Shown here: piece after piece, positions 21,925 through 37,325 of the stretch
How positions within the stretch are numbered: position 1 is the stretch's first letter
How the letters are laid out: every line of letters starts with the position of its first letter
Assembly (NCBI GenBank): GCA_016931955.1
Contig: JAFGDV010000012.1
Location: forward strand, 37,510-101,509
Reading direction: 5' to 3'
Length of the DNA: 64,000 bases
From: Candidatus Altiarchaeota archaeon
Lineage (GTDB): Archaea > Altiarchaeota > Altiarchaeia > IMC4 > QMZM01
Position numbers and translations under genes: made by a program
The notes under the pieces: model-generated
The model's input: the letters and a program-made list of their open reading frames with translations, nothing else
Told to the model about the DNA's origin: nothing
The model's database searches: none

Positions 21925-22025
21925 CAATCTGACATAGGATACGTGTTCTACGAGATCGAGCTTGCTCTTACCGCCCCCATGCGGTCGACGAAGGGGATGG
22001 AAATAGCCGCAGACCAGGATCTCTA
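21925..22025. repeat. Degenerate copy of the 3' end of GT2 gene 28347-29063 (att-like)
   Basis: ctgacataggatacgtgttctacgagatcgagcttgctcttaccgcccc… aligns to 28375-28440. Near-identical to the copy at 26521-26590. Confidence 0.6.
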
Positions 22026-22118
22026 AGAGGATAGGGATACAGCCGCCTGAGACACTAAAAGCCCACCGAAACATCTGATAACGGAGTTGTTACTTTCTGG
22101 TGTAGCATTTTTAAACAT

Positions 22119-22140
22119 ATGTTACGTTATAATGTAACAT
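22119..22140. promoter_or_regulatory. Perfect palindrome ATGTTAC-N8-GTAACAT between a TATA-like ttttaaac and the ATG of ATPase 1
   Basis: atgttacgttataatgtaacat overlaps start codon 22139. Operator-like position on a leaderless promoter. Confidence 0.35.
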
Positions 22141-23419: not shown

Positions 23420-23454
23420 AGACTAACCCAGATACTCCGAGGTTTAATTTACAT

Positions 23455-23481
23455 TTGCCGCCCACGCGGTCGACGAATAAA
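23455..23481. repeat. Short relic of the GT2 3'-end repeat (gccgcccacgcggtcgacgaa)
   Basis: Matches the ccgcccccatgcggtcgacgaa core of the copies at 21961 and 26540. Confidence 0.4.
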
Positions 23482-23530
23482 CAAAATTTGCCGTTACAAG
23501 GGCAAAGTTTTAAAAGAAAATTCACCCACA

Positions 23531-23576
23531 AATGCAATATTTATGCATAAATATTGCAATAGACTGCAATATTTAA
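23531..23576. promoter_or_regulatory. Nested palindromic operator-like element (three TGCAATATTT/AAATATTGCA half-sites; ATTTATGCATAAAT)
   Basis: Upstream of ATPase 2. A paralogous ~50-bp copy lies at 29132-29185. Confidence 0.35.
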
Positions 23577-23599
23577 ATACAACAACCACTATATATAAC

Positions 23600-24925
23600 A
23601 TGGACAAAAACACCCTCAGAGCAACAATAATATCACAAAAAAAAGAAACAAAAAAAATACTAAAACAAGAAAAAATCATAGAAAGAGAACTACAAAAAGA
23701 AACAGAAAAACAACTAAAAAACAACCTCATCAAGATCACCACAGGCGTCAGAAGATGCGGAAAATCAACCCTCGCCCTACAAACACTCCAAGACAAAGAA
23801 CACGCCTACATCAACTTCGACGACGAAAGACTCTACAAGATCACGACAAAAGACCTCGACACAATCCTAGAAACACTATATGAAGTATACGGAAACTTCA
23901 AATACCTCCTCCTAGACGAAATACAGAACATACCTGGATGGGAGCTATACGCAAACAGACTACAAAGACAAGGCCTCAACCTCATAGTAACCGGAAGCAA
24001 CGCAAAACTACTAAGCAAAGAACTTGCAACACACCTAACAGGAAGACACATCACACTTGAACTATACCCCTTCTCCTTCAGAGAATACCTAAGCTACCAC
24101 AAAATCAGCCCCCAAAAAGAAGACCTACAAATCGCAGAAGGCATCGGAAAAATCAAAAAACACCTAAGAGACTACATAGAAAAAGGCGGATTCCCCGAAA
24201 CATACAAAATCAAAGACAACACAAGATACCTAAAAGACCTCTACAACTCCATCATAAACCAAGACATCATAAGCAGATACAACATAAAATACGCAAACAC
24301 GCTAAGAGAGATAATCTCCTACACCATCTCAAACTACGCAAGCCCAATAACCTACAAAAAAATAAAAAACATATTCGACATAAAAAGCCAACACACAATA
24401 AAAAACTACCTCTACTACGCAGAAGAATCATACCTGATAACCCAGAGCCTACAATACACACACAAAATAAAAGAACAAACACGACTGCCCAAAAAAATCT
24501 ACGCCATAGACACAGGCCTCATAAAAGCAATAGGATTCAAGGCATCAGAAAACACCGGCAGACTAATGGAAAACCTCATCGCAATAGAACTACAGAGAAA
24601 AAAAACACAAAACCCCCTCCTAGAAATATACCACTGGAGAGACTACCAAAAAAGAGAAGTCGACTTCGCAGTCAAAGAAGGCCTAAAAGTAAAGGAACTA
24701 ATCCAGGCATGCTACGACATCGAAGACCCAAAAACAAAGGAGAGGGAAGAAAAAGCATTGATAAAAGCCGGGAAAGAACTCAGATGCAAAAACCTCAAAA
24801 TAATAACCTGGGACCACGAAGAAACAGGGAGAATAGAGTATATCCCACTATGGAAGTGGCTGCTGCAGCCGACGGGTTTTGTCCCGGCGACTGAGGAGAA
24901 TGTAGTGCCTAACCCAACAAATTAG
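23600..24925 (+). CDS. COG1373-type ATPase paralog
   Basis: Start chosen at MDKNTLRA (23600). Walker A GVRRCGKSTLA. C-terminal …IPLWKWLL, then a read-through tail. Confidence 0.65.
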   Translation: MDKNTLRATIISQKKETKKILKQEKIIERELQKETEKQLKNNLIKITTGVRRCGKSTLALQTLQDKEHAYINFDDERLYKITTKDLDTILETLYEVYGNFKYLLLDEIQNIPGWELYANRLQRQGLNLIVTGSNAKLLSKELATHLTGRHITLELYPFSFREYLSYHKISPQKEDLQIAEGIGKIKKHLRDYIEKGGFPETYKIKDNTRYLKDLYNSIINQDIISRYNIKYANTLREIISYTISNYASPITYKKIKNIFDIKSQHTIKNYLYYAEESYLITQSLQYTHKIKEQTRLPKKIYAIDTGLIKAIGFKASENTGRLMENLIAIELQRKKTQNPLLEIYHWRDYQKREVDFAVKEGLKVKELIQACYDIEDPKTKEREEKALIKAGKELRCKNLKIITWDHEETGRIEYIPLWKWLLQPTGFVPATEENVVPNPTN

Positions 24926-24964
24926 GCACCAAACCCAAAAAAAACACCCCGAATAGGGGAAAAC

Positions 24965-26311
24965 CTAAGGCAACCCCAATAAAGAGAAAAGCCACGCCGG
25001 AATATAATATATTACTATACTATCTGTTCCCCCTCTCCTCAGCTGATTCCTCGTCACCAAAACCGCCTCACCTACACCGTATTTTTCGCAGAATTTAGTT
25101 AGGCTACGAATGTCTTTCTTGTTAATGTAGGTCTGATACTTGACTTCGACAGGCAGCAGCCTTTTGTCCGCTAATACAATATCCACCTCATCCTTCTGCG
25201 GCGTACGCCAGAAAGATATCTTCTGCAGACTACCCACTATCTGAGACTCTATGAGATGACCTGCTATCCCACCACCTTCAAGCATGCTAAAGGGTTGATC
25301 CAATAACGCCAACACAATAGATGGGTGGACTATGAACTGTTTCTTGCTTGCACGCACCTGCTTAGATACGTTGACAGAGTAGTTGTAGGCCACCTTAATC
25401 AGAAAAGATTTCTCTAGTAGGCTTACATACTCTGCCGCCTGATTTCGGTTAATCCTGAGGTTGCCTGCTATGTTCACCAACTCAAAGAGTTGGGCGTTCG
25501 CCGCAGCCAGCAGCCTGAGCAATTCGTAGACCACGTTCTCATTCCCCCTGCTAGCCCGACTTATGTCTTCGACGGTTTTCTCTATCACCGACTCCCGAAT
25601 ATACTTTTTAATGTATTCTTCGTCGTCTTCGTCAAACAGCTCAGGGAAGGCGCCCCTCTCCAAGTATTGGATGAACAGTTCCATGTATCTAGCCCTATTC
25701 GCAGCGAAATGCAGGTCATATTCTCGTATCATGTTTTCGTTCAAGGCTATCTCGTCCCTAAGACCAAAGTATCTCACAAACTCCCTGAAGGAAAGTACTG
25801 GCAGATGAAAGGATAGTATCCTGCCGGCAAGCGTTTCCCTGTATTTCCTCAGCTCAAGAGACGATGACCCGGAGACAAAAATCTTCAGGTTCTCTTCGGT
25901 GTCATAGACAGTCTTAAGGAGATCAGGGAAGTTAGGAAGCTTCTGCACCTCGTCGAGGAAAAGATACCTCATACCTTTCCCATCAGAAAACTCCAGAAAG
26001 TAGTTGATTAGATCCCATGCCACCTCATACCTCTGGAAGTCTATGTCGTCGAAGGAGATATAGCAGACGTTCTTTTCTTCGGTCTTCACCAGAAGCTTCT
26101 TTATCATCTGCTTGAGTAAGACAGTCTTGCCTACGCGCCGCAGACCCACGACTGCCAGAATCTGCCTATTTTGACAGTATTTGAGTAGGTCTCCCATGAG
26201 GTCTCTCTCAAACTCTGGAGTAGTGAAGTCTTTTTTCTCCCACCACGGGTTCTGCCTGAAAAGCAGTCTACTGTGTCTTTCGTCCATCGTATTATCTATT
26301 AGGAAGAACAT
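24965..26311 (-). CDS. COG1373-type ATPase paralog
   Basis: …QNPWWEKKDF…GLRRVGKTVLL…YIPAWLFSLL. Confidence 0.65.
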   Translation of the reverse strand: MFFLIDNTMDERHSRLLFRQNPWWEKKDFTTPEFERDLMGDLLKYCQNRQILAVVGLRRVGKTVLLKQMIKKLLVKTEEKNVCYISFDDIDFQRYEVAWDLINYFLEFSDGKGMRYLFLDEVQKLPNFPDLLKTVYDTEENLKIFVSGSSSLELRKYRETLAGRILSFHLPVLSFREFVRYFGLRDEIALNENMIREYDLHFAANRARYMELFIQYLERGAFPELFDEDDEEYIKKYIRESVIEKTVEDISRASRGNENVVYELLRLLAAANAQLFELVNIAGNLRINRNQAAEYVSLLEKSFLIKVAYNYSVNVSKQVRASKKQFIVHPSIVLALLDQPFSMLEGGGIAGHLIESQIVGSLQKISFWRTPQKDEVDIVLADKRLLPVEVKYQTYINKKDIRSLTKFCEKYGVGEAVLVTRNQLRRGGTDSIVIYYIPAWLFSLLGLP

Positions 26312-26321
26312 CCTTATAAAG

Positions 26322-26380
26322 TTTATGCACTAAAAACGTGCACAAAATAAAATTTTATGCACAAAAACTGTGCACAGAAT
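26322..26380. promoter_or_regulatory. Tandem 27-bp operator-like repeat, each unit with a TGCAC-N8-GTGCA inverted repeat
   Basis: tttatgcactaaaaacgtgcacaaaat / tttatgcacaaaaactgtgcacagaat, directly upstream of ATPase 3 on the minus strand. Confidence 0.35.
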
Positions 26381-26415
26381 CTAAAAAGCCACAAGATTAA
26401 GAACGACGCTATTGA

Positions 26416-26600
26416 TTATCTCCCCAAAAAACCAGGGAAAGCATTCAAACACTACGAATAAAAAAAGAACTGGAAAAACTGAAACATATAGTCTACATCA
26501 CAGAAGAAGAAAAAAACTAAAGGCCGAGCTTGCTCTTACCGCCCCCATGCGGTCGACGAAGGAGATGGAGATGGCCGCAGACCCTCAACTGCCCCAGACC
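26416..26600. repeat. Direct repeat: ~105-bp intergenic segment plus a degenerate GT2 3'-end copy (partner at 28246-28440)
   Basis: tccccaaaaaaccagggaaagcattcaaacactacgaataaaaaaag… aligns with 28246-28350. gagcttgctcttaccgcccccatgcggtcgacgaagg aligns with 28406-28440 and is near-identical to 21961-22000. Confidence 0.65.
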
Positions 26601-26710
26601 CCTTGCCACAGAATCCTCAGACATTATAAGGTACAGATGACAAAAAACATAGTATTCCATCAGATACAACCAACAATATTTAAACCCAGAAAACAAAAAT
26701 AAGATAAAAG

Positions 26711-28093
26711 ATGACAATCATCGACTCCCTGAAAGCCCAAAACGAATGGTGGAAGACCGGGAAAGTACCCACAGCACTCCTAAAAAAAACCAAAAGAGAA
26801 GAATACAAGACAGCAGAAAAACTCCTCAAAGAAGAAAGAATAACCGCAATAACCGGACCACGCAGAACCGGAAAAACAACCCTCCAATACCAGCTCATAC
26901 ACCACCTCCTCCAAGAAACCGAACCCAACAAGATACTCTACATATCCATGGACGACCCATCACTAAGACCCCACACACAAAACCTCCTACAAGAAATACT
27001 GGAAACCTACTACAGAGAAATCCTCCTCGAAGAAAAAAGAAACACACAAGTCCACGTCTTCATAGACGAAATACACTTCCACACAAACTGGGAACAATGG
27101 CTGAAAAAATACTACGACCAAAGATACCCAATAAAATTCACGATAACAAGCTCATCCTCAGCCCACCTATCACAGAAGTCAAAAGAAAGCCTCGTCGGAC
27201 GAATCATCGAAATACTACTACTCCCCCTAAGCTTCAGAAGCTACCTCGCCCTCACAGGAAAAAACCAGCTCACAGAACACTACAACAAACTCAGCCTCGA
27301 AACAATAGACGCAGACAAAAGATTCCAGCTGCTAAAACACGAAGAAGAAGCACGGATCATGTTCTCAAAATACCTCCTATACGGAGGACTGCCCGAGTCC
27401 ATAAAAACAGGAGAAATACACCTATGGCAGGAAAAACTAATATCAGACGTCCTAAGAAAAGTTATATACAGAGACATCACAGGACTCTACGACGTCAGAA
27501 CACCCACAAAACTCGAAGACCTCTTCGTCCACCTCACATACAACACCAGCAAAACATTCTCATACACCTCCCTCTCCCAAAACCTCGGCATAAGCACAGA
27601 AGCCATAATAAACTACACACGCTACCTCCAGGAATCCTACCTCATAGGCGAACTACGACTCCACACAAAAAGCATCGAAAAAAGCCTCCGAGCCAACAGA
27701 AAATACTTCATAATGGACTGCGGACTACAGAACGCCATAACAAAAACCACCGACCTAACCGAAGCCAACACAGGCCCACTAATAGAATCCACAATCGAAA
27801 AACACCTCTACGCATACGCCAAAAAAGAAAACCACAACCTACACTACTGGAGAGAAAAAGAAGAAGTAGACATAATACTAGACACCAAAAAAAAGACACT
27901 ACCAATAGAGGTAAAATACAAAAACAAGATAAAAAAAGAAGACATGCGAGGACTACTCAAATTCATGGACAAATACAAAACAGACAAAGGATACATGATA
28001 ACCAAAGACCTCCTCCAAAAACAAAAAATCAACGGAAAAGAAATCCAACTAATACCAGCATGGCTATTCCTACTAGCAATACCCGCCGCCTAA
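26711..28093 (+). CDS. COG1373-type ATPase paralog
   Basis: …QNEWWKTGKVP…GPRRTGKTTLQ…LIPAWLFLLAIPAA. Confidence 0.65.
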   Translation: MTIIDSLKAQNEWWKTGKVPTALLKKTKREEYKTAEKLLKEERITAITGPRRTGKTTLQYQLIHHLLQETEPNKILYISMDDPSLRPHTQNLLQEILETYYREILLEEKRNTQVHVFIDEIHFHTNWEQWLKKYYDQRYPIKFTITSSSSAHLSQKSKESLVGRIIEILLLPLSFRSYLALTGKNQLTEHYNKLSLETIDADKRFQLLKHEEEARIMFSKYLLYGGLPESIKTGEIHLWQEKLISDVLRKVIYRDITGLYDVRTPTKLEDLFVHLTYNTSKTFSYTSLSQNLGISTEAIINYTRYLQESYLIGELRLHTKSIEKSLRANRKYFIMDCGLQNAITKTTDLTEANTGPLIESTIEKHLYAYAKKENHNLHYWREKEEVDIILDTKKKTLPIEVKYKNKIKKEDMRGLLKFMDKYKTDKGYMITKDLLQKQKINGKEIQLIPAWLFLLAIPAA

Positions 28094-28245
28094 AAAAAAA
28101 AGACTGAGACAACAGCCTGCTTCTTTCCCGCCTGAACATATAAAAAGATCACTATTAGCATGATCATGGTTATACAATTCAGAAACCAAGTGACTGAACC
28201 CTAAGACCTGAAAGAAATAATAGGAAACAACAACGAATCAGCTTA

Positions 28246-28440
28246 TAATCTATCCCCAAAAAAAAACCAGGGAAAGCATTCGAACACTACGAATAAAAAA
28301 AGATCCAGGAAAAAACCAGCCTGCATCACAGAAGAAGAAAAAAAAACTACTTCAGATACAGGCGGAGACAATGCCTGACATAGGATAAGTGTTCTCCGAG
28401 ATTAAGCTTGCTCTTACCGCCCTCTCGGTCAATGAAAGTG
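28246..28440. repeat. Resident copy of the direct repeat (intergenic ~105 bp plus the genuine 3' end of the GT2 gene)
   Basis: See 26416-26600. Confidence 0.65.
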
Positions 28441-29063
28441 ATCGGGACCTCCTTGACTCGGGAATAGCGGCCGCGAACCAGTATTTCTAAGAGGATCTTG
28501 AAGCCGACCGGGTTAAGGACGACGCCGTCAATAACTTCTCTGCGGAAGAAGAAGAAACCAGAGACCGGATCCCTGACAGAGGTGAGGGGGCGAGCCAAGA
28601 GGACAGCACCCCGAGAGGTTAGACGACGACGAAGAGGCCAATTCTGGATACAACCGCCACGGACATAGCGGCTGCCGACGGAGACATCGGCTTCGCCCCG
28701 CAAAATAGGAGCCACCAAAGCAGGAATAGCGTCTAGGGGATGAGAGAAGTCGGCGTCCATGACGCCAAATATGCCGCCCGAAGCCTGAGAGAAGCCGGCG
28801 AGGACGGCAGAGGAAAGACCTAATTTGCCGGAGCGGACGATGATTTTAAGATCGGGGTAAGGGCTTTGAAGAGAACGGACGACTTCGGCGGAGCCATCTG
28901 GGCTGTTGTCGTCTACGATGATCAGTTCACCGCGGAGGTCGTTGCGGGAAAAAACCTTGAAGAAGGCAGGAATAAGCTTGGATAAGTTCTCGCGTTCATT
29001 ATAGGTGGGTACGACGACTGAGACCCTGGAGTTCTCCAAGGGAGGGAAAGAAGTCCTATGCAT
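28347..29063 (-). CDS. GT2 dolichol/polyprenol-phosphate mannosyltransferase-like (Dpm1-type, soluble form)
   Basis: …VSVVVPTYNERENL…VDDNSPDGS…DADFSHP… GC-rich (core-like) composition, unlike its neighbours. Confidence 0.7.
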   Translation of the reverse strand: MHRTSFPPLENSRVSVVVPTYNERENLSKLIPAFFKVFSRNDLRGELIIVDDNSPDGSAEVVRSLQSPYPDLKIIVRSGKLGLSSAVLAGFSQASGGIFGVMDADFSHPLDAIPALVAPILRGEADVSVGSRYVRGGCIQNWPLRRRLTSRGAVLLARPLTSVRDPVSGFFFFRREVIDGVVLNPVGFKILLEILVRGRYSRVKEVPITFIDREGGKSKLNLGEHLSYVRHCLRLYLK

Positions 29064-29131
29064 GATAAAGGATATAAACAGATACGGAAATAAATAAGTT
29101 TGCTGTTATGAGGTGGGGATAATCTACCCAC

Positions 29132-29185
29132 GGATGCAATAGTTATGCATAGATATTGTAATAGACTGCAGTATTTGGATACGAT
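29132..29185. repeat. Copy of the ATPase-2 upstream palindromic element
   Basis: ggatgcaatagttatgcatagatattgtaatagactgcagtatttggatac is ~85% identical to 23531-23580. Confidence 0.45.
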
Positions 29186-29209
29186 AATAAAAGATCACTG
29201 AGGGATAAT

Positions 29210-29245
29210 GGGAGGGGCTGCTAGGATAGAGGAGTTGATACCCCA
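29210..29245. repeat. Relic of the ATPase 3'-terminal motif plus the left 21-bp direct repeat of the AbiE-like module
   Basis: tgggaggggctgctaggatagag matches tggaagtggctgctagaatagag (23401-23423) at 20 of 23 positions. gatagaggagttgatacccca recurs at 31174-31193. Confidence 0.5.
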
Positions 29246-29307
29246 GTAGTCGTCGAGGACAAAGGAGAAGAAAGCCCCACGCATTTTACGGAACATACAC
29301 GGTAATG

Positions 29308-29350
29308 TACTAAAAATAGTAAAAAAAATGATATTTTACTAAAAATAGTA
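29308..29350. promoter_or_regulatory. Two TACTA-N4-TAGTA palindromes 29 bp apart next to a TATA-like tttatagg, upstream of the AbiEi-like gene
   Basis: tactaaaaatagta at 29308-29321 and 29337-29350. ATG at 29379. Confidence 0.4.
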
Positions 29351-29378
29351 TTTATAGGTGAAAAACACATAACATAAC

Positions 29379-30221
29379 ATGCTAGAACTGATCTACGGGA
29401 CAAAAACAAAGACCAGGATACTGGAAGAGCTCGCAACAGCAGGAAAACCAAAGACCAGAAAAGAACTAATAGAGCTGACAGGATGCGGCACCAGGGGAGT
29501 ATACGAGCAGACAGAGGAACTAATAACCCTAGGCATAGTCAAAGAAACCAAGAAAGGCTGGAAAAAACTAGAGCTAAACCCAGAACACCCACTATACCAG
29601 GACATCAAAAACACGGCACTCGCAGCAATAGACTACAAAAAAAACCTCATAAAAAACCTCCTCCAGACAATAGACCAAATACTAGAAGACGACTACTATA
29701 TCGGATTCTACACAGCAGCCACAAAAAAAATCACACCAATCGACTACACACCAGAGAAACACGTATACAAGGTACTGGACACAGAATACGAAAAAAAAAT
29801 AAAGAAAATCAAAACATACGACAAACTAAGGGAAATAGACATACAAAAAGAGAAAAAAGGGTTGATTAAGGCAGTATTCCTAAAATGCCAGAAAATCCCG
29901 GAAGACGTGACAAGAGAAGAAATACAAAACCAGGAAGTGTGGATAGCAAGCACGGAGAGGGGTATAGTAGAATGCTTCACCCCAGAAAACAAATACTTCA
30001 CCAGATACGGAAGCTGCCTGGCCCTGCTACAAAACAAAATAGAAAACACAATAGACGAAAAACAACTACTGAAAATAGCAGGAGAACTCAACATAAAAAA
30101 AGAACTAGTTAAAGTCATGGGCAGCTTCAACCACCACCTCAAAAAAAGACTATTCAACGCAGAACCCAACACAGAAGAGATCAAAGAAGTCAAACAGGCG
30201 ATAAACACGGTATTAGGATGA
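29379..30221 (+). CDS. AbiEi-like antitoxin / transcriptional regulator (N-terminal wHTH)
   Basis: TRILEELATAGKPKTRKELIELTGCGTRGVYEQTEELITLGIV winged-helix. Stop overlaps the start of the downstream NTase by 4 bp. Confidence 0.5.
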   Translation: MLELIYGTKTKTRILEELATAGKPKTRKELIELTGCGTRGVYEQTEELITLGIVKETKKGWKKLELNPEHPLYQDIKNTALAAIDYKKNLIKNLLQTIDQILEDDYYIGFYTAATKKITPIDYTPEKHVYKVLDTEYEKKIKKIKTYDKLREIDIQKEKKGLIKAVFLKCQKIPEDVTREEIQNQEVWIASTERGIVECFTPENKYFTRYGSCLALLQNKIENTIDEKQLLKIAGELNIKKELVKVMGSFNHHLKKRLFNAEPNTEEIKEVKQAINTVLG

Positions 30222-31177
30222 AGACAACATACACGACAGAAGAAAAAGAAGGGATCCTAGGCATAATAGAAACCTGGGGGAGAGAACAGATAACCCAAGA
30301 CGTCTTCAGAAAAATACAACTACAGACAGGCATACCTTCAGGACTGATAGAGACAACATTCTGGCACATAGACACACTCTATCAGCTGAAAAAACTCGAA
30401 AAACCACCCATATTCAAAGGAGGAACCTGCGTACAATGCTACATCCCAGCAGGCCTGCAGAGAGCATCAAACGACCTAGACTTCAATTCAAGGATAGCCA
30501 ACCCAGCCACCATAAGGGAGCAGATAAAAAAACTAAACAAAAAACTGCTAAACAAAGGAAACGCCACACAGATAAAAAAATACGGCGAAAGAATAAGCTA
30601 TGGAACATTCGACTACCAGCTAAAAGACGAAATATCCGGTGTTATAACATTCAACAGGAGAATGCCCTCCCGCCTTGGAGAATACGTCAAAGCAGGCGAA
30701 CTAGAGGTTCAGGCAAAAAACATGAAAATCCAGGTAAACTACAAACACGCCTGGATGCCCGCAATAAAGACGATAGACAAAAAACCAAGATTCTTCATAC
30801 TCGAACACCAAAAAATGAAAGGATTCACCTACCCAAGCTCAAGCCTGAACGACCTAATCGCCGACAAAATACTTGCAACAACAAAAGAAACGGGGAGAGA
30901 ACGATTCAAAGACGTATACGACCTGATGACTCTGTTCATGCAAAAATACGAGAAAAAACAGATACTCGAGAAACTGGAGAGGATACTGGAGAAGAAAGGG
31001 CAACAACCAGAGACCACGATAAAATCCTCGGCAACGAATATCGGGAGATTCACAGAAAAAAGCCTCGAAGCACAAGGATTCAAAAGCCTCGTATGCAAAG
31101 ACGGCAGAAAACTCATAGAAAACTGGGAAACCAACTGCTTAAAGCTAACAGAGAAGATGAACTCGTTGCTGAGATAG
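30218..31177 (+). CDS. AbiEii-like nucleotidyltransferase toxin (DUF1814 / Pol-beta NTase fold)
   Basis: FKGGTCVQCYIPAGLQRASNDLDFNS matches the hGG…DhDh NTase motif of AbiEii-family toxins. Translationally coupled to the upstream wHTH gene. Confidence 0.55.
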   Translation: MKTTYTTEEKEGILGIIETWGREQITQDVFRKIQLQTGIPSGLIETTFWHIDTLYQLKKLEKPPIFKGGTCVQCYIPAGLQRASNDLDFNSRIANPATIREQIKKLNKKLLNKGNATQIKKYGERISYGTFDYQLKDEISGVITFNRRMPSRLGEYVKAGELEVQAKNMKIQVNYKHAWMPAIKTIDKKPRFFILEHQKMKGFTYPSSSLNDLIADKILATTKETGRERFKDVYDLMTLFMQKYEKKQILEKLERILEKKGQQPETTIKSSATNIGRFTEKSLEAQGFKSLVCKDGRKLIENWETNCLKLTEKMNSLLR

Positions 31178-31194
31178 AGGAGTTGATCCCATGG
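31174..31194. repeat. Right 21-bp direct repeat of the AbiE-like module (gatagaggagttgatcccatg)
   Basis: Matches 29225-29245 at 20 of 21 positions. Overlaps the toxin stop codon. Confidence 0.5.
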
Positions 31195-31354
31195 AAGACC
31201 CCTTGAGGAGGAGGCTTCTCGATTAATCTTGATTAAAGATCTCATGGTATAACCTTTAACTTCAATAGGGAGGTAGGGGTAGGGTGATATGCGTATTTAT
31301 ATACTTATGTTCACTATAGTATACAAAATATGAGGAATTTGTTCACCGAATAAG

Positions 31355-32641
31355 ATGGAGCACAGAAAAATCATAATACAATGGAAAGAATACACACCAC
31401 CGAAGACACAACCCAGAGAAGTGAACATCGACCCCACAACAGACTTCATCACCACAATAACAGGCCCAAGAAGAGCAGGCAAAACATACCTCTGCTACCA
31501 GCTAATGAACCACCTAATAGACAAAGGAACCCCCCGAGAAAACATCCTATACGTGAACTTCGAAGACGAAAAACTCATAGGGGCTAAAGCAGCAGACCTC
31601 GAAAAACTGATGAACACATTCCAAGAACTAACAGACACCAACCCAGAACACAACACCTACCTCTTCCTCGACGAAATACAGAACGTCAAAGACTGGGACG
31701 CATGGATAAGGAGAATACACGACACCCAAAAAAACGTGAAACTAATACTCACAGGCTCATCCTCCAAGATGCTAAGCCGAGAAGTCACAACAAAACTACG
31801 CGGCAGAATACTAAACCACGAAGTATACCCCCTAAGCTTCAAAGAATACCTCACATGGAAAAACACCCCATACAACCTAAAAACACTAACAGAAAGCAGA
31901 GACAGAATCGAAGTAAAAAAACAATACAATGAATACCTGACAAACGGAGGCTACCCCACAATAGCACTCAACCAAGCACCCAGAGAACAGATACTCCAAA
32001 GCTACTACGAATCAATGATATTCAAGGATGTGGTAGAAAGACACAACATCAAAGACGTCAAAAAACTGCGCATACTCGCAAAACTACTATTCGAATCCAC
32101 ATCAAAAGAGATGTCCTACAACAGGCTAGCAAACAAACTCAAATCCCTCGGATTCACAGCAAGCAAAAACACCATAATAGAACACATCAGCCACTTCGAA
32201 GACGCATACCTATTCTTCCAGAACATGAAACACGAGTACTCCATCACAAAACGGATGGGTGCGATAAAAAAGATCTACTGCATAGACAACGGACTACTCA
32301 ACACAGTCAGCTTCAAATTCGCAGAAGACACCGGAAAACTGATGGAAAACCAAGTCTACATAGAACTAAAACGCAGAAACAAACAAGTCTACTACCACAA
32401 AGACAAACACGAATGCGACTTCCTCACACAAGAAAAAAACAAGATCACATCAGCCATACAAGTAACCCACACACTAAACGACGAAAACGAAGACCGAGAA
32501 ATAAACGGCCTACTTGAAGCCATGAGAACCCACAACCTACAAGATGGAACCATCCTCACCTTCGAACAAGAAGAGACAAGAAAAAAAGACGACAAAACAA
32601 TACGGATCACACCAGTCTGGAAGTGGCTGCTGGAGACATGA
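31355..32641 (+). CDS. COG1373-type ATPase paralog
   Basis: …ITGPRRAGKTYLCY…FLDEIQN…ITPVWKWLLET*. Confidence 0.65.
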   Translation: MEHRKIIIQWKEYTPPKTQPREVNIDPTTDFITTITGPRRAGKTYLCYQLMNHLIDKGTPRENILYVNFEDEKLIGAKAADLEKLMNTFQELTDTNPEHNTYLFLDEIQNVKDWDAWIRRIHDTQKNVKLILTGSSSKMLSREVTTKLRGRILNHEVYPLSFKEYLTWKNTPYNLKTLTESRDRIEVKKQYNEYLTNGGYPTIALNQAPREQILQSYYESMIFKDVVERHNIKDVKKLRILAKLLFESTSKEMSYNRLANKLKSLGFTASKNTIIEHISHFEDAYLFFQNMKHEYSITKRMGAIKKIYCIDNGLLNTVSFKFAEDTGKLMENQVYIELKRRNKQVYYHKDKHECDFLTQEKNKITSAIQVTHTLNDENEDREINGLLEAMRTHNLQDGTILTFEQEETRKKDDKTIRITPVWKWLLET

Positions 32642-32711
32642 GATCGAAAGAAAAACAGACCAGAGAGTATCTTTGTTGACCAAAATTTATAAATAATGGA
32701 CAACATAGATG

Positions 32712-32788
32712 TAAAGTGATAACATGGGACCGCGAAGAAAAAGGGAGAATAGAATACATACCACTATGGAAGTGGCTGCTGGAATAAA
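32712..32788 (+). pseudogene. 3'-terminal fragment of a COG1373 ATPase gene (ATPase-2-like)
   Basis: ataacatgggaccgcgaagaaaaagggagaatagaatacataccactatggaagtggctgctggaataa is ~88% identical to 24799-24866. No upstream ORF. Confidence 0.5.
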
Positions 32789-32984
32789 GAGGTTATTTCA
32801 TAGATGGCTGCTTGAGGCAGAAAGAGAAGAGCCCAGAAGAGAGCAAGGTAGTGCCCTGGAAAAGGCAAGATATAAAGGAGGTGAGGGGAAATAGGGGATA
32901 TAGTAGGGGCTCCGATGAATGCATCCCAACGAGGATAGAGAGAAAAGCTTTTAATCCCATATCGACAGAATACTTTAAGAGAAG

Positions 32985-33185
32985 ATGAAATGCGCACTGG
33001 ATAAGGAGGAAGGAATACCAGATAAGAGAAGATGCCCCAAAAAGATGCTCAACGGACCATGCGGCGGACAACTAAAGGGAAAATGCGAAGTAAACCCAGG
33101 ATTAGGGTGCGTGTGGGTGCAGGTATATGAGGAACTCAAGAAGAGGGGGAAAGAAAAAATACTCAAGGAGCTGTGCATGAGATGA
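32985..33185 (+). CDS. MetV-like small zinc-ribbon protein (MTHFR C-terminal-domain family)
   Basis: …RRCPKKMLNGPCGG…C…C… motif. Overlaps the metF start. Confidence 0.5.
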   Translation: MKCALDKEEGIPDKRRCPKKMLNGPCGGQLKGKCEVNPGLGCVWVQVYEELKKRGKEKILKELCMR

Positions 33186-34060
33186 CGCTGAGAAGAGAAT
33201 TAAAGAAAAAATTCACTTATACGGGAGAACTAGAACCCGGGAAGATTTCAGAGTTAAAGGAGATAGTAGAGGAAGCCAGGAAACTGAAGAAGTATGTTAC
33301 GGCATGTAATGTAACAGACAACCCGCAAGCTTATGCGTACATAAGCAGCCTGGCGGCGTCGTATATGATACAGGAGAAGGCCGGGATGGAGGCCATATAT
33401 CAGCTGACTTGCAGAGACAGGAATCGATTAGCGCTGACTTCAGAGCTGCTGGGGGCGGCGGCGCTGGGGATAAAGAATGTGCTGGCGTTGACTGGAGACT
33501 ACACTACGTTGGGGGATATGCCTGAGGCGAAGCCTGTATTTGATTTAGATGCGTGCCGGCTAGTGCATATGATCAAGGAGATGAACGAGGGAAGAGATAT
33601 AAAGGGGAACCGAATAGAACCTAGGACGGAATTCTTTATCGGAGTCGCAGCGAACCCCAACGCTATACCATTAGAACCGGAGATACTGAAGCTGGAGAAG
33701 AAAGAAAAAGTGGGGGCGGAATTCGTGCAGACTCAGGTAGTGTATGAGATGGAGATAGTAGAGAATTTCCTGGAGGCAACGAAGAACGTGGAGATACCGA
33801 TACTGATCGGGGTGTTCCCGCTGAGATCATACGGGGTAGCGGAGTACTTCGACAAGAACGTGCCCGGAGTCAAGGTACCCGAAAAACTGTTGAAGGAACT
33901 GAAGGAGATAAAGGAGGCTGGGGGGGCTCGGGAGGAATACGATAAAGTCAATGAAAGATTCTTTTCCGGACTAATAAAAGGGATAAAGAAGACTGATGCG
34001 AGGGGATGCCATATAATGGCGGTGAATTACTCGGAGATTGTGGAGAAGCTGGTCGTCTAA
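33173..34060 (+). CDS. metF: Methylenetetrahydrofolate reductase-like (MetF)
   Basis: 295-aa TIM-barrel MTHFR signature (…VTDNPQAYAYISSLAASYMIQEKAGMEAIYQLTCRDRNRLAL…ALTGDY…). Confidence 0.65.
   Translation: MHEMTLRRELKKKFTYTGELEPGKISELKEIVEEARKLKKYVTACNVTDNPQAYAYISSLAASYMIQEKAGMEAIYQLTCRDRNRLALTSELLGAAALGIKNVLALTGDYTTLGDMPEAKPVFDLDACRLVHMIKEMNEGRDIKGNRIEPRTEFFIGVAANPNAIPLEPEILKLEKKEKVGAEFVQTQVVYEMEIVENFLEATKNVEIPILIGVFPLRSYGVAEYFDKNVPGVKVPEKLLKELKEIKEAGGAREEYDKVNERFFSGLIKGIKKTDARGCHIMAVNYSEIVEKLVV
34001..34053. repeat. 53-bp direct repeat (genuine 3' end of metF), left copy
   Basis: aggggatgccatataatggcggtgaattactcggagattgtggagaagctggt. Partner at 34721-34773 with 2 mismatches. Confidence 0.7.
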
Positions 34061-34398
34061 GTTTTTTCCATAAGGATCTTTTTGATGATGGGTCTGACCA
34101 CTGGTATGTCCTCCTTCACGACAAGCCACACCCTCTTAGGGTCCATCCCAAAGTAGAAATGGATAGCCTTATCCCTCATACCCGCTATATCCCGCCAAGG
34201 CACTTCAGGATGCTTATCCTTCACAGGAGAAGGCACGTTTTTTGCCGCTTCGCCTATGACCTCGACACATCGGATGACGGCTTATTGAGTCTTCTCATCC
34301 CCTAAAAACACGTCATAAGACATATCTCTGATGAATTCCTCGGCAAGCTCCATGTTCTCCAACATATCCTTCAGATAGATTGACACGTTCCTTTTCAT
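34057..34398 (-). pseudogene. HEPN (DUF86) toxin gene with an in-frame TAA stop
   Basis: Minus-strand translation gives MKRNVSIYLKDMLENMELAEEFIRDMSYDVFLGDEKTQ*AVIRCVEVIGEAAKNV…RDKAIHFYF… (Rx4HxY HEPN motif). The stop is at 34282-34284. Start overlaps the MNT stop by 2 bp (34396-34397). Confidence 0.5.
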
Positions 34399-34688
34399 AC
34401 ATAAACCGCCTCCTCTAGGACTCTATCCCGCAACTCAGCGCGAAGATCCTTTTTAGGAACAACATCAGCCTTAACGCCGAGAACATCACCCAAGAAATTC
34501 TCCAAGCCAACAATCCTGAGAAGACTCACCGGCTCCTCGAATTCGACGAGGAAGTCAACATCACTTGACTCATCCTGCTCACCCCTGACATAAGACCCAA
34601 AAACACCGATACTCTTAACCATAAACCTCCTCGAAAGCTCAGCCCTATGCTTAGACAAAGCAGTCCTAATGTCACCAAGGGTTACCAT
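34395..34688 (-). CDS. Minimal nucleotidyltransferase (MNT) antitoxin
   Basis: GVFGSYVRGEQDESSDVDFLVEF, the Pol-beta NTase motif of MNT antitoxins. 97 aa. Confidence 0.7.
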   Translation of the reverse strand: MVTLGDIRTALSKHRAELSRRFMVKSIGVFGSYVRGEQDESSDVDFLVEFEEPVSLLRIVGLENFLGDVLGVKADVVPKKDLRAELRDRVLEEAVYV

Positions 34689-34720
34689 ATTAGGATATTG
34701 GACTTAGAAACTATAAGCCA

Positions 34721-34773
34721 AGGAGATGCCATATAATGGCGGTGAATTACTCGGAGATTGTGGAAAAGCTGGT
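34721..34773. repeat. 53-bp direct repeat, right copy (duplicated metF 3' end, retains a stop)
   Basis: aggagatgccatataatggcggtgaattactcggagattgtggaaaagctggt. Confidence 0.7.
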
Positions 34774-34902
34774 TTAGAAAAAAAGCTCTCCAGACCATTT
34801 CTTTAGTTGGGTGAAACCCCTTTCAGAGAGAATATTGCCTGCAGCCAAAAAGACCTTGAGGAGAAGGTGATTAAGGATTATGCAGCCTGATATAATACTG
34901 TA

Positions 34903-35751
34903 TCACTTAGAGGAATACATCACTCCATTCTTGTCCTTGACAGTTAATTCAGCGGGGGCGAAGATATCCGCCGGAATATTATAGAAGTCGCGGTCAGCCT
35001 GCTGGAAGATGTCGCAGAAAGACCTGCCGAAAGCAGAGGAATTCTTGGAGACGGACCTCTCAGTCAAGGAAGGAACCCAGTCACTTACCTGAAGAAAGAC
35101 GTTACCCTTATAGATGATGGCGTCATTGGCCTCGAACATGCAGTCTTCGCTCAATTCCACCATGGGAACGGAACCCTGAGCGGAGACGATGTTGTTGACG
35201 TCAAAGCCCAGGTTAAGGAGACGGAAGACAGCGACCTCGACGACGCGGGAAAGAACATTGACCAAGCCAGTCAAGGAATTAGGACGAAAAACACCGATGA
35301 GAAGGTCAGAGGCGCCAGTATCCCTCAGGATGGATTCAAGAAGAGGCCTAGGGGGGAAAGAACTGGTCTCAAGCAAGAGGGCGGCAACATCAGAGGACTC
35401 AAAGTAGTTGATCCTAGGCAGAAGACCCGGAGGCTTGTCCGCTAGGATGCGGGCAGGGCCCGAGCCCATGGCGGAAAAATCCCCGGACTTGACACGCCAG
35501 CCCGCCATCTGAGATCCAAGGGTTGCGACGGCAGGGGCCTCGTCGATCCTGACCTGGACGACGTCGTCTATCATAACCTGACCCAATCCTGCAAGAGAAG
35601 CCTCAGCCACCCACAAAGCGGTATCCAAGTCAGGCACAGAATTCAAGCCGACGTCTAAGACAGAGACTGAGCCAAAATCAAGCTCCAACATAAGGGATGG
35701 ATCCACCTTAAGGGATTCAAGGATCCCATAAGCGCGCTTGTTTAGGTTCAT
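34903..35751 (-). CDS. mch: Methenyltetrahydromethanopterin cyclohydrolase-like (Mch)
   Basis: 282 aa. …AGWRVKSGDFSAMGSGPARILA… and …FYNIPADIFAPAELTV… resemble Mch hallmark segments. The call is from memory of the family. Confidence 0.45.
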   Translation of the reverse strand: MNLNKRAYGILESLKVDPSLMLELDFGSVSVLDVGLNSVPDLDTALWVAEASLAGLGQVMIDDVVQVRIDEAPAVATLGSQMAGWRVKSGDFSAMGSGPARILADKPPGLLPRINYFESSDVAALLLETSSFPPRPLLESILRDTGASDLLIGVFRPNSLTGLVNVLSRVVEVAVFRLLNLGFDVNNIVSAQGSVPMVELSEDCMFEANDAIIYKGNVFLQVSDWVPSLTERSVSKNSSAFGRSFCDIFQQADRDFYNIPADIFAPAELTVKDKNGVMYSSK

Positions 35752-37325
35752 TTTCCAACGGAGGGGAAAAGGGTCCCATCCTTGTGAGGAAGATACAATG
35801 CGTTAAGATACTCCTCATTAAAATCTTTAGATTCTGAGAGATTAAAGTATGTGACCTTTTTGGCGAGGGATTCCGCCCCCTTCTTCACCTCGTCGTCGAC
35901 CAACGCCATATATGCGCCCCTGAGGGAGCCGTTGCCGATGAACTCGAACCTCTCCCTTGGGATATCAGGAAGCAAGCCAATGGTTATCGCCTTCTCCAAG
36001 TCGATGTGGTAGCCAAAGCCGCCTGCTATGTAGATCTTCTGCAGATCATTGAAGTCAACGCCCACCCTGGAAAGGGTTCTGGCGCCGGCATAGATGGCGG
36101 CCTTACCCAACAGGATATTGCGGACGTCCTTCTCGTTCAAGGAAATATCCCTGCCGTTGACGGTTTCGTCTCCGAAGACGACTACGAATTCGAGGCCGTT
36201 GGCTCCGGACCGCAACCTATCAGAGGGCATGTCGGAGAACCTGCCCTGGTGGTCTATTACATCCCTCCTGAATAGGCCAGCAAGTAAACTGATCAAACCG
36301 GAGCCGCATACGCCGGCAGGCTTCTCATTGCCTACGGTAGAGTAGACCACGTTAAGGTCTTCGTCTACGTCGATGCGCTCAATGACTCCCATAACAGCAG
36401 GCATGCCGCAGCTGACCTCGCCCCCCTCAAAGGCCGGGCCGGCTGAGGTAGAACATGCAAGAAGCCATTCACTGCAGCCTAAGACGACTTCGCCGTTGGT
36501 ACCCACGTCGACCAGCATGGAAGGCTTCTCTGATTTATGCAAGCCGCTGACAAGGATGTCAGCTACCACATCCCCGCCAACGAAGCCGGCGATGCCCGGC
36601 ATAGAATAGAGGCTGCCAGAGCAATTCAACCTGAGTTTCTCCGCATCCAGGCGGCGAGGTAATCTAAACTCTGAAAGTTCAGGGTCCTCCAAGACAATAC
36701 GAGGATCCCGGTCCAATAGGATGTAGGTCATGATGGTGTTGCCTGCAGTGACAATGTGCTTTACCCGCACATGCTCTCTGCCCTCGATGAGGGAAGCGAT
36801 GACTGAGTTGACTGTATCGATGATTGATCTGTTAAGGGATTCCACGCCTATGTGCTCAGCGTATTTCAAGCGAGTCAATACGTCGCCGCCGTAGGTTACC
36901 TGCCTGTTGTATTCAGAGGCATAGGCCACAGGCTTCTTGGTCGAGAGGTCGACGAGGTAGGCGAATACAGTAGTCGTGCCGACGTCGACCGCCACGCCGA
37001 CGTCGAAGCCCGACAATTCAGACAATTCCAGACTAGGAGACTCGGAAAGGATCTGATGCTCACCCAAGCGGCTCTCAGGCGGGACGAAGACGATCAAGTC
37101 AGACGCTGGAAAGGTCTGGCATGCCAGGTGCAGGTCACCTGATTTAGGCTTCAAGGACCTGACCCTGCCCTCCTCGATTCTGACACCGCATCTGCCGCAT
37201 CTGCCTTTGCCATAGCAGAGGGCGGACAAGCATATGCCTGCTTCCATGGCTGCATCAAGGAGGGACCTGTCTTCCCCGATCCTGACAACCCTGCCATCCG
37301 GTTGAAAGGTTACAATGTACTCCAT
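35748..37325 (-). CDS. Reductive activator of corrinoid proteins (RACo/RamA-like): [2Fe-2S] ferredoxin + ASKHA ATPase (COG3894)
   Basis: N-terminal plant-type ferredoxin C-x4-C-x2-C (CYGKGRCGRCGV) followed by a ~450-aa ASKHA/DUF4445-like domain. Adjacent to CFeSP genes. Confidence 0.5.
   Translation of the reverse strand: MEYIVTFQPDGRVVRIGEDRSLLDAAMEAGICLSALCYGKGRCGRCGVRIEEGRVRSLKPKSGDLHLACQTFPASDLIVFVPPESRLGEHQILSESPSLELSELSGFDVGVAVDVGTTTVFAYLVDLSTKKPVAYASEYNRQVTYGGDVLTRLKYAEHIGVESLNRSIIDTVNSVIASLIEGREHVRVKHIVTAGNTIMTYILLDRDPRIVLEDPELSEFRLPRRLDAEKLRLNCSGSLYSMPGIAGFVGGDVVADILVSGLHKSEKPSMLVDVGTNGEVVLGCSEWLLACSTSAGPAFEGGEVSCGMPAVMGVIERIDVDEDLNVVYSTVGNEKPAGVCGSGLISLLAGLFRRDVIDHQGRFSDMPSDRLRSGANGLEFVVVFGDETVNGRDISLNEKDVRNILLGKAAIYAGARTLSRVGVDFNDLQKIYIAGGFGYHIDLEKAITIGLLPDIPRERFEFIGNGSLRGAYMALVDDEVKKGAESLAKKVTYFNLSESKDFNEEYLNALYLPHKDGTLFPSVGK

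What the first reader, a model, noticed from the sequence alone, without database searches (positions are those of the whole stretch)
34001..34773. HEPN-MNT toxin-antitoxin cassette inserted at the 3' end of metF with a 53-bp target duplication, and the HEPN toxin carries an in-frame stop
The last 53 bp of metF (34001-34053) are repeated at 34721-34773 with 2 mismatches. The repeats bracket a 667-bp segment encoding an MNT antitoxin (34395-34688) and a DUF86/HEPN gene whose start overlaps the MNT stop (34398-34057). The HEPN reading frame has a TAA at 34282-34284 (…GDEKTQ*AVIRCVEVIGEAAK…) and keeps the Rx4HxY motif downstream. This is a toxin-inactivated TA module preserved as a recognisable insertion.
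Basis: seen in the sequence. Interest (0 to 1): 0.6.

Follow-up and report, generated by a model that had tools for sequence, protein, structure and literature searches.

The report
Decayed toxin-antitoxin cassette behind metF
A small HepT/MntA toxin-antitoxin gene pair sits between two converging carbon-fixation genes (metF and mch) of an uncultured archaeon, bracketed by two copies of the last 53 bases of metF, and its toxin gene carries a stop codon; this is a well-preserved but ordinary relic of mobile DNA, not a new kind of system.

Summary
The repeat 34001-34053 / 34721-34773 is real: 53 nt, 2 mismatches, none in 100 shuffles. It brackets 667 bp that encode MntA (34395-34688, -) and HepT (34057-34398, -). 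HepT has an in-frame TAA at 34282-34284 and an intact RX4HXY motif. The closest relatives found (Logan contigs L014 and L015, about 78% nt identity; L016) have metF and mch tail-to-tail, overlapping by 8-16 bp, with no TA genes and only one copy of the metF end. So this is an insertion.

"Target duplication" is not established. The extra DNA relative to those relatives is 848 bp (34055-34902), and copy 2 is followed by 129 bp of unknown origin rather than by mch. Fifty-three bp is att-like, not transposon-like, and there are no inverted ends, transposase or integrase.

My best reading is an integrase-less, decayed integrated cassette resembling a streptococcal CIME. It entered by recombination within the metF 3' end, supplied metF's new last codon and stop, and displaced the old end. 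The toxin was then knocked out at a conserved Asp codon. Relic 3' ends of a glycosyltransferase gene flank AAA_14 cassettes in the same window, so the region is an integration hotspot. It is a new member of known kinds, of modest interest.

The parts
32985..33185 (+). metV (small zinc-ribbon partner of MetF); its stop overlaps the metF ATG (ATGA)
   Evidence: PF12225, E 7e-18; colinear with L014 and L016
33182..34060 (+). metF (methylenetetrahydrofolate reductase), intact; the last codon (GTC) and the TAA stop come from the inserted DNA
   Evidence: PF02219, E 3e-37, profile positions 8-282 of 287; 100% identical to NCBI protein P0001 from a MAG labelled Candidatus Altiarchaeota; similarity to L014 ends at 34054
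34001..34053 (+). Repeat copy 1: the working 3' end of metF (RGCHIMAVNYSEIVEKLV)
   Evidence: keeps the Gly codon conserved in 7 of 7 homologues
34057..34398 (-). hepT pseudogene (HEPN RNase toxin, 113 codons). TAA at 34282-34284 replaces a conserved Asp codon. RX4HXY = RDKAIHFY is intact. No frameshift and no second stop
   Evidence: PF01934, E 4e-28; alignment with the HepT partners from L017, L019 and L020, 51-55% identity, 50 invariant columns
34395..34688 (-). mntA (minimal nucleotidyltransferase antitoxin), intact, with GSX10DXD = GSYVRGEQDESSDVD
   Evidence: PF01909, E 2e-19; PDB 1WOT minimal nucleotidyltransferase, E 3e-12; NCBI protein P0121; motif definition from PMC7641770
34689..34720 (-). 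32-bp unique segment upstream of mntA. It holds a TATA-like TTATAG at -28 to -23 from the ATG, a likely promoter of a leaderless transcript (inference only)
   Evidence: read from the sequence; no significant similarity to the DNA upstream of copy 1
34721..34777 (+). Repeat copy 2 (34721-34773) plus its own stop: a displaced relic of the metF 3' end reading RRCHIMAVNYSEIVEKLV*. It carries Gly->Arg at the conserved Gly codon and one synonymous difference
34774..34902 (.). 129-bp spacer of unknown origin between relic copy 2 and the mch stop; absent from the relatives. Its minus strand is open for 42 codons, in frame after the mch TGA, and contains T5 and T7 runs. Removing 34774-34903 recreates the L014-type junction GCTGGT|CACTTAG
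   Evidence: no similarity to any fetched locus or to the rest of the window; no protein homologue; no Rfam family; fold z-score 0.0
34903..35751 (-). mch (methenyl-H4MPT cyclohydrolase), intact, with the same C-terminus (...YSSK*) as in L014
   Evidence: PF02289, E 6e-63

Best explanation
This is a class I HepT/MntA (HEPN-MNT, type VII) toxin-antitoxin cassette of foreign origin. It was integrated between the formerly overlapping convergent genes metF and mch of an archaeal Wood-Ljungdahl cluster, and it is now decaying.

Shown:
- The cassette and the second copy of the metF end are absent from the closest relatives found.
- metF now ends in DNA that belongs to the insert.
- A relic metF end lies on the far side of the cassette.
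- No recombinase lies in or near the insert.
- hepT has one nonsense codon, while mntA and all HepT motifs are intact.

Inferred mechanism. A small circular DNA carried a surrogate copy of the metF 3' end next to hepT-mntA, like an attP site. It recombined with the chromosomal metF end inside the 40-bp identical core (Campbell-type integration). The recombination was done either by a site-specific recombinase supplied in trans or since lost, or by homologous recombination. The result is attL (copy 1: chromosomal left part plus element-supplied right part, last codon and stop) and attR (copy 2: element-supplied left part plus the old chromosomal end, TTAG and downstream DNA).

What remains is an integrase-less remnant comparable to a streptococcal CIME. 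An addiction module is expected to be the last part of such an element to be lost. The TAA in hepT is the next step of decay: the toxin is lost first and the harmless antitoxin persists.

The 129-bp spacer between copy 2 and mch is most simply an older, separate insertion that had already pulled metF and mch apart.
For: Identity of the genes:
- Pfam HepT-like, E 4e-28, and NTP_transf_2, E 2e-19.
- RX4HXY and GSX10DXD are both present, as defined in PMC7641770.
- The two genes overlap by 4 nt in operon order antitoxin-toxin.

Insertion:
- L014 is colinear with the window except for 34055-34902.
- metF and mch overlap in L014, L015 and L016.
- Each relative has one copy of its own metF end.
- GC is 0.455-0.475 across the cassette, against about 0.52-0.57 in mch and the genes beyond it. 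metF itself is only 0.46-0.51, so the contrast on that side is slight.

att-like rather than TSD-like:
- The repeat is 53 bp with sharp ends.
- There are no inverted repeats at the cassette ends.
- The non-synonymous mismatch (Gly->Arg at a codon conserved in 7 of 7 homologues) lies in the left tip of the relic copy. In a Campbell model that tip is element-derived and never expressed.
- The other mismatch is synonymous.

Same pattern nearby:
- The 3' end and downstream flank of the glycosyltransferase gene (28253-28496) has two degenerate relic copies, 21780-22032 and 26421-26583.
- They are 82-95% identical and are separated by AAA_14/DUF4143 cassettes. The working copy is on the gene and the relics lie distal to it.
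- This matches the tandem accretion described for CIMEs at 3' ends of protein genes (PMC7563491).

Toxin decay:
- There is a single TAA where three homologues have Asp.
- The 50 columns that are invariant across the four aligned sequences (window HepT included) show no other damage to the ORF.
- TAA is a normal stop in this genome.
Against: - No integrase, no parent element and no second copy of the cassette was found. There is nothing in the 64-kb window. The closest MntA among 5.8 billion proteins is only 60% identical. Viral contigs hold nothing related.
- Copy 2 does not abut the sequence that follows metF in the relatives, so an extra event (the 129-bp spacer) has to be assumed.
- The nearest relative is only about 78% identical in DNA, so the state just before insertion is not observed.
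- Three other HepT/MntA loci (L017, L019, L020) show no flanking repeats. This is not a general property of such cassettes.
- Site-specific and homologous recombination cannot be told apart from this sequence.
- The TAA could be a consensus or sequencing error in a MAG.
Confidence: 0.55

Rival explanations
1. A true target-site duplication. A linear cassette was pasted into staggered cuts 53 bp apart in the metF end, and gap filling duplicated the target.
For: The two copies directly flank the cassette and have sharp ends. They differ at only 2 of 53 positions, which could be later drift in the unused copy.
Against: 53 bp is far longer than the duplications I know of for transposases or casposases (general knowledge, not looked up here). 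There are no terminal inverted repeats. The window has no transposase or Cas1. Copy 2 is not followed by the native downstream sequence. The analogous glycosyltransferase relics are about 110-250 bp long and only 82-95% identical, which does not look like a target-site duplication.
Confidence: 0.1
2. One complex illegitimate event. The whole 848 bp (34055-34902) entered at the TC of the ancestral GCTGG-TC-ACTTAG junction by end joining or template switching. It brought along a metF-end fragment and 129 bp from a donor genome, or copied the local metF end during repair.
For: The L014 alignment puts both break points at the same dinucleotide: L014 positions 1803-1804 align to both 34053-34054 and 34903-34904. 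The spacer has no local source. Elsewhere in the window, an AAA_14 gene seems to have been gutted and refilled, leaving 5' and 3' relics at 29118-29182 and 32713-32790.
Against: It needs a donor that already had the odd junction of mntA promoter next to the last 53 bp of metF. That only moves the problem elsewhere. The 96% identity of the fragment to the resident metF end, against about 84% between L014 and the window over the same stretch, argues for a same-lineage origin.
Confidence: 0.2
3. An assembly artefact. The MAG contig is a chimera of strain variants joined at the shared metF-end sequence, and no single genome holds both copies.
For: The source is a metagenome-assembled genome. The contigs of the relatives L014 and L016 break at a repeated gene end in the same region.
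Against: The junction between mntA upstream DNA and copy 2 (34720/34721) is a novel adjacency that a graph mis-join at the repeat would not create. The copies differ at two positions and have different flanks on both sides. Gene order on both sides is colinear with independent assemblies.
Confidence: 0.05

Closest known systems
Class I HepT/MntA (HEPN/MNT, type VII) toxin-antitoxin systems, e.g. Shewanella oneidensis SO_3166/SO_3165 and Thermococcus cleftensis HepT/MntA (PMC7641770)
   Same: The Pfam pair PF01934/PF01909, RX4HXY in the toxin, GSX10DXD in the antitoxin, the antitoxin gene upstream and overlapping the toxin gene, and small proteins of 97 and 113 codons.
   Different: The toxin ORF is broken by TAA at codon 39, so as written it cannot make the RNase. 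Identity to the nearest homologues is only 51-60%. Activity and AMPylation are untested.
CIMEs (cis-mobilizable elements): decayed integrated elements of streptococci that keep attL/attR but have lost the integrase and transfer genes; they sit at 3' ends of protein-coding or tRNA genes (PMC7563491)
   Same: Direct repeats made of the target gene's 3' end, an intact target gene, no recombinase inside, and cargo only. Tandem arrays with relic repeats also occur nearby in the window, at the glycosyltransferase locus.
   Different: The host is an archaeon. The unit is 720 bp, smaller than classical CIMEs (1.2-13 kb). No cognate ICE, IME or integrase is known, so whether the repeats are true att sites is unproven. 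The outer repeat is separated from the native downstream gene by 129 bp.
Archaeal integrated plasmids and viruses with tyrosine integrases of the SSV or pTN3 type (from general knowledge, not looked up here)
   Same: Direct repeats of some tens of bp at the 3' end of a gene, with the element supplying a replacement gene end.
   Different: Those elements usually target tRNA genes, are kilobases long and encode the integrase. None of that is seen here. The window has no tRNA gene and no integrase.
Decay of chromosomal TA systems by toxin inactivation, e.g. ccdO157 between folA and apaH in Escherichia coli (from general knowledge, not looked up here)
   Same: A TA pair inserted between two core genes and absent from relatives, with the toxin inactivated while the antitoxin stays intact.
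   Different: A different TA family and domain of life. Here only one genome is available, so the frequency of the null allele is unknown.

Membership tests
Class I HepT/MntA toxin-antitoxin system | Toxin with a HEPN (HepT-like, PF01934) domain carrying RX4HXY | tested here: met
   PF01934, E 4e-28, profile positions 1-120 of 120; RDKAIHFY is present; motif definition in PMC7641770
Class I HepT/MntA toxin-antitoxin system | Adjacent MNT antitoxin (PF01909) with GSX10DXD | tested here: met
   PF01909, E 2e-19; GSYVRGEQDESSDVD in the translation; 4-nt ATGA overlap with hepT
Class I HepT/MntA toxin-antitoxin system | Complete toxin reading frame | tested here: not met
   TAA at 34282-34284, where three homologues have Asp; TAA is a genuine stop here. 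It is therefore a pseudogenised member.
Class I HepT/MntA toxin-antitoxin system | RNase toxicity neutralised by MntA-catalysed AMPylation of the motif Tyr | not testable with these tools
   Needs expression of a repaired hepT with and without mntA
Integrated element with att repeats / CIME-like remnant | Direct repeats flank the insert, one of them being the 3' end of an intact target gene | tested here: met
Integrated element with att repeats / CIME-like remnant | Insert and second repeat are absent from the orthologous site in relatives | tested here: met
   L014, L015, L016
Integrated element with att repeats / CIME-like remnant | No recombination or transfer genes inside the element (this separates a CIME from an ICE or IME) | tested here: met
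   Only hepT and mntA lie between the repeats
Integrated element with att repeats / CIME-like remnant | The repeats are sites of a known site-specific recombinase (cognate integrase, parent element, or the same att used by other elements) | tested here: inconclusive
   No integrase among about 58 ORFs of the window. No close cassette relative in the protein or viral collections. The rest of the genome was not available.
Integrated element with att repeats / CIME-like remnant | The outer repeat continues directly into the native downstream sequence | tested here: not met
   129 bp of unknown origin separate copy 2 from mch. This can be reconciled only by assuming an earlier insertion.
Transposon-type insertion with target-site duplication | Terminal inverted repeats, a transposase, and a short fixed-length duplication | tested here: not met
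   No inverted repeat at the cassette ends; no transposase; the repeat is 53 bp
Integron gene cassette | An attC-type imperfect inverted repeat at the cassette end, and an integron integrase and attI nearby | tested here: not met
   No inverted repeat of 14 nt or more in 33000-36000 apart from an unrelated pair inside mch/RACo; the spacer folds no better than shuffles; no integrase in the window

The most novel reading that the evidence does not exclude
The 720-bp unit (one 53-bp copy of the target gene's end, a promoter, and mntA-hepT) would be a self-contained integrative cassette. It would circularise and re-enter chromosomes by recombination with gene 3' ends, without an integrase of its own. 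The relic glycosyltransferase ends flanking AAA_14 cassettes would then show the same process operating region-wide. That would be a general, recombinase-independent route by which TA and defence cassettes spread among related archaea.
Probability: 0.1. Interest if true: 0.65.

Novelty: new member of a known kind. Interest (0 to 1): 0.3.

Why it matters
HEPN/MNT pairs are described as the most abundant TA modules in prokaryotes (PMC7641770), yet how such two-gene cassettes enter chromosomes is rarely visible.

Here the entry scar is unusually clean. Both repeat copies, the rebuilt stop codon of metF, the displaced old gene end and empty sites in relatives are all preserved. The cassette sits inside a core carbon-fixation cluster of a poorly known archaeal lineage.

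It also captures the expected order of TA decay, with the toxin lost first and the antitoxin kept. Together with the relic gene ends nearby, it marks a 13-kb stretch (about 21.8-34.9 kb) as an integration hotspot for defence-type cassettes.

This is useful as an example and as a strain marker. It does not change what is known about TA systems or integration.

Tried and rejected
- Exact-protein look-ups of the window's MetF (two start choices) and MntA found no contig on record.
- Genome and metagenome scans with MetF returned only relatives of 60% aa identity or less, with different gene order. For example, L002 has a different gene (no mch) downstream of metF. They were not informative about the empty site.
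- The protein search gave the useful relatives P0002 and P0003.
- I looked for the cassette or a metF-end-bearing element in viral contigs, using a degenerate 47-nt pattern and the MntA protein. Nothing was found.
- I tested whether the 129-bp spacer is a relic gene end. Its 42-codon minus-strand frame has no credible homologue among 1.84 billion representatives; the 4 hits have no or only very short (at most 25-residue) aligned stretches, mostly in much longer proteins. It has no DNA similarity to any locus or to the rest of the window, no Rfam family, and folds no better than shuffles.
- I tested whether the repeat homology extends left of 34001/34721 in degenerate form, after noticing GGACT.A.AAA in both flanks. 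The score was no better than shuffled sequence, so I rejected this.
- I looked for flanking repeats around three other HepT/MntA loci (L017, L019, L020). Only chance-level matches turned up.
- Stop-codon reassignment was considered for the TAA and rejected. TAA ends 13 of 46 Pfam-supported genes, including metF itself.
- HepT gave no sequence hit to solved structures at E<=0.001.
- A shared 8-9-mer (AGGRGATG) between the metF repeat and the glycosyltransferase relics was noted by eye and judged compatible with chance.
Full report
**1. The observation**

The window holds a 53-nt direct repeat at 34001-34053 and 34721-34773, with two mismatches. A search allowing 3 mismatches finds only these two sites, and none in 100 dinucleotide-preserving shuffles. 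Copy 1 is the end of a 292-codon metF (33182-34060; PF02219, E 3e-37). metF is preceded by metV (32985-33185; PF12225) with an ATGA overlap.

The 667 bp between the copies carry two genes on the minus strand. One is an MNT nucleotidyltransferase gene (34395-34688; PF01909, E 2e-19). The other is a HepT-like HEPN gene (34057-34398; PF01934, E 4e-28). The HepT ATG overlaps the MNT stop by 4 nt. The HepT TAG (34057-34059) overlaps the metF TAA (34058-34060).

The HepT frame contains one in-frame TAA at 34282-34284. RDKAIHFY lies downstream of it.

**2. Detail of the repeat**

In the metF frame, the mismatch at position 4 turns GGA (Gly) into AGA (Arg) in copy 2. That Gly is conserved in all seven MetF homologues inspected. 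The mismatch at position 45 is synonymous (GAG/GAA). The exact core is 40 bp.

Copy 2 keeps the frame and ends with its own stop (...EKLV*, TAG at 34775-34777). Copy 1 runs on into insert DNA (...EKLVV*, GTC TAA). Similarity stops sharply at both ends. A local alignment of the left flanks scores no better than shuffles, and the right flanks differ at once.

**3. It is an insertion**

The window's MetF is identical to an NCBI protein from a MAG labelled Candidatus Altiarchaeota, on a 114-kb contig. The MntA is annotated in the same record. The next closest MetF proteins are P0002 (85%) and P0003 (68%).

Their contigs (L014 and L015; L016) have metV-metF followed directly by a convergent mch that overlaps metF by 8 and 16 bp. 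RACo and cdh genes follow, as in the window.

BLASTN of L014 against the window gives three colinear blocks:
- L014 1-640 aligns to 28408-29047.
- L014 700-1804 aligns to 32944-34054.
- L014 1803-3382 aligns to 34903-36482.

Relative to this relative, the window therefore has 848 extra bp at 34055-34902. It also has a second, unrelated 3.9-kb insertion at 29048-32943. Each relative has only one copy of its own metF end.

**4. Where the simple picture fails**

If the event were a plain 53-bp target duplication, copy 2 should run straight into the mch end, as the metF end does in the relatives (GCTGGTCACTTAG in L014). Instead copy 2 is followed by TTAG and 125 more bases before the mch stop at 34903.

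This 129-bp spacer has:
- no similarity to any fetched locus or to the rest of the window;
- no protein homologue for its one open frame;
- no Rfam match;
- no unusual fold.

Removing 34774-34903 recreates the L014-type junction exactly. The most economical history is therefore two events. An older 130-bp insertion separated metF from mch and gave metF the end ...CTGGTTTAG. A later event added the 720 bp made of the cassette plus one repeat copy. A single complex 848-bp event cannot be excluded.

**5. What kind of repeat it is**

Fifty-three bp is far longer than the target-site duplications I know of for transposases or casposases (general knowledge, not looked up). The cassette has no inverted ends. 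None of the roughly 58 ORFs of 110 aa or more in the window matches an integrase or transposase family. The window has no tRNA gene.

The anatomy is that of an element integrated into a gene's 3' end. There is a working gene end whose tip comes from the insert, and a displaced relic of the old end beyond the cargo.

In a Campbell-type model with the crossover in the 40-bp core, both mismatches become pre-existing attP/attB differences. The Gly->Arg difference then lies in the left tip of the incoming copy, which is never translated. That would explain why a damaging change sits there. Drift in an unused copy explains it equally well, so this is consistent with the model but is not proof.

Decayed elements that keep their att repeats but have lost the integrase are known in streptococci as CIMEs. 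They sit at 3' ends of protein-coding genes and often form tandem arrays, with the most decayed unit farthest from the target gene (PMC7563491).

**6. The same pattern nearby**

A self-comparison of 17-36 kb and alignments show the following.
- The 3' end plus downstream flank of the family-2 glycosyltransferase gene (28347-29063, minus strand; working end 28253-28496) has two degenerate relic copies, at 21780-22032 and 26421-26583.
- The relics are 95% identical to each other over 59 nt, and 82-84% identical to the working copy, with indels.
- AAA_14/DUF4143 ATPase genes lie between the three copies (22139-23419, 23543-24925, 24965-26311 minus strand, 26711-28093).
- The contigs L014 and L016 both begin at window positions 28408 and 28405, inside this repeated gene end. 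This is what an assembly break at a repeat would look like.
- Between the glycosyltransferase gene and metV lie a 5' relic (29118-29182) and a 3' relic (32713-32790, reading RIEYIPLWKWLLE*) of another AAA_14 gene. They enclose an AbiEi/AbiEii pair and a fifth AAA_14 gene.

GC is 0.35-0.49 across the cassettes (about 0.38-0.46 over most of them) against about 0.50-0.58 in most core genes. metF, at 0.46-0.51, is intermediate. The stretch from about 21.8 to 34.9 kb is thus a hotspot where accessory cassettes have piled up between core genes, several of them bounded by relic gene ends.

Against a general rule, three other HepT/MntA loci from other organisms show no flanking repeats.

**7. The toxin**

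The pair meets the definition of class I HepT/MntA systems: RX4HXY in the toxin and GSX10DXD (GSYVRGEQDESSDVD) in the antitoxin (PMC7641770). In that family MntA neutralises the HepT RNase by oligo-AMPylating the motif Tyr.

The window HepT was aligned with the HepT partners of the MntA homologues P0125, P0128 and P0123 (57%, 54% and 59% MntA identity), from L017, L019 and L020. HepT identity is 51-55%. All three have Asp where the window has TAA (KTCDAVIRC versus KTQ*AVIRC). Fifty columns are invariant across the four sequences, and there is no frameshift or second stop.

TAA is a normal stop in this genome: 13 of 46 Pfam-supported genes end in it, metF included. As written, then, the toxin is truncated after 38 residues, upstream of the catalytic motif, and mntA is intact.

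The lack of other damage means the mutation is recent, or it is a consensus or sequencing error. Reads were not available. No closer copy of the cassette exists in the collections searched; the best MntA is 60% identical.

**8. Verdict**

Insertion and toxin interruption hold. 'Target duplication' is better read as att-like repeats of a decayed, integrase-less integrated cassette, and the neighbourhood shows that an extra 129 bp has to be accounted for.
- The mechanism of entry (site-specific or homologous recombination, or a complex illegitimate event) is inferred, not shown.
- It is a new member of known kinds: a HepT/MntA TA system and a CIME-like remnant at a gene 3' end.
- Interest is modest. 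Its value lies in the clean scar and the hotspot context in a little-studied archaeal lineage.

Noticed in passing
window 21780-22032, 26421-26583 and 28253-28496: Two degenerate relic copies of the 3' end plus downstream flank of the GT2 glycosyltransferase gene (28347-29063, minus strand) lie 1.7 and 6.4 kb downstream of the working end. The relics are 95% identical to each other and 82-84% to the working copy. AAA_14 cassettes lie between them. This is the same working-end-plus-displaced-relic pattern as at metF.
   Followed up: partly
window 22139-23419, 23543-24925, 24965-26311 (-), 26711-28093, 31355-32641: Five paralogous AAA_14/DUF4143 ATPase genes lie within 10.5 kb. They are about 65-78% identical in DNA where alignable and have lower GC than the core genes. 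No recombinase lies among them.
   Followed up: partly
window 29118-29182 and 32713-32790: A 5' relic (promoter plus first codons, MHRYCNRLQYLD...) and a 3' relic (RIEYIPLWKWLLE*) of a sixth AAA_14 gene, 83-88% identical to the gene at 23543-24925. They enclose AbiEi/AbiEii and the fifth AAA_14 gene, as if the old gene had been gutted and refilled.
   Followed up: partly
window 29048-32943: A second insertion relative to L014, which has only 59 bp here. It holds an AbiEii toxin gene (30218-31177, PF08843), its upstream partner (29379-30221, no Pfam hit) and an AAA_14 gene.
   Followed up: partly
window 29219-29242 and 31167-31190: A 24-nt direct repeat (21 of 24 identical) brackets the AbiEi/AbiEii pair. 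The second copy covers the AbiEii stop codon. It may be another cassette scar or chance.
   Followed up: no
L014 position 1 (= window 28408) and L016 position 1 (= window 28405): Two independent assemblies of different relatives both break within 3 bp of each other inside the glycosyltransferase 3' end. This suggests that the gene end is repeated or variable in those genomes too.
   Followed up: no
window 34056-34062 (-), 34702-34708 (+), 34905-34911 (+): The 7-mer ACTTAGA is part of the ancestral metF/mch overlap TCACTTAGA. It occurs three times within the 850-bp insertion region, against 10 times in the whole window on both strands. The sites are the HepT stop, the 32-bp segment upstream of mntA, and the mch stop. 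This is unexplained and may be chance.
   Followed up: partly
window 34774-34905 (-): After the mch TGA stop, the same frame stays open for 42 more codons. It ends in a TAA that overlaps the stop of the relic metF copy. The peptide has no homologue.
   Followed up: yes
window 23533-23558 and 32669-32710: A perfect 26-nt palindrome lies at the start of the AAA_14 gene at 23543. An imperfect 42-nt palindrome lies in the gap between the fifth AAA_14 gene and the 3' relic.
   Followed up: no
window 2941-3079 / 3541-3679 and 20726-20857 / 20888-21019: Two further repeats. One is between adjacent hexapeptide-transferase paralogues (77% identical). The other is an internal tandem repeat in the 1063-aa CARDB-like protein (73-83% identical).
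   Followed up: no
window 20000-34000: Very strong A-over-T skew on the coding strand (AT skew up to about 0.6) in plus-strand genes, most marked in the accessory cassettes.
   Followed up: no
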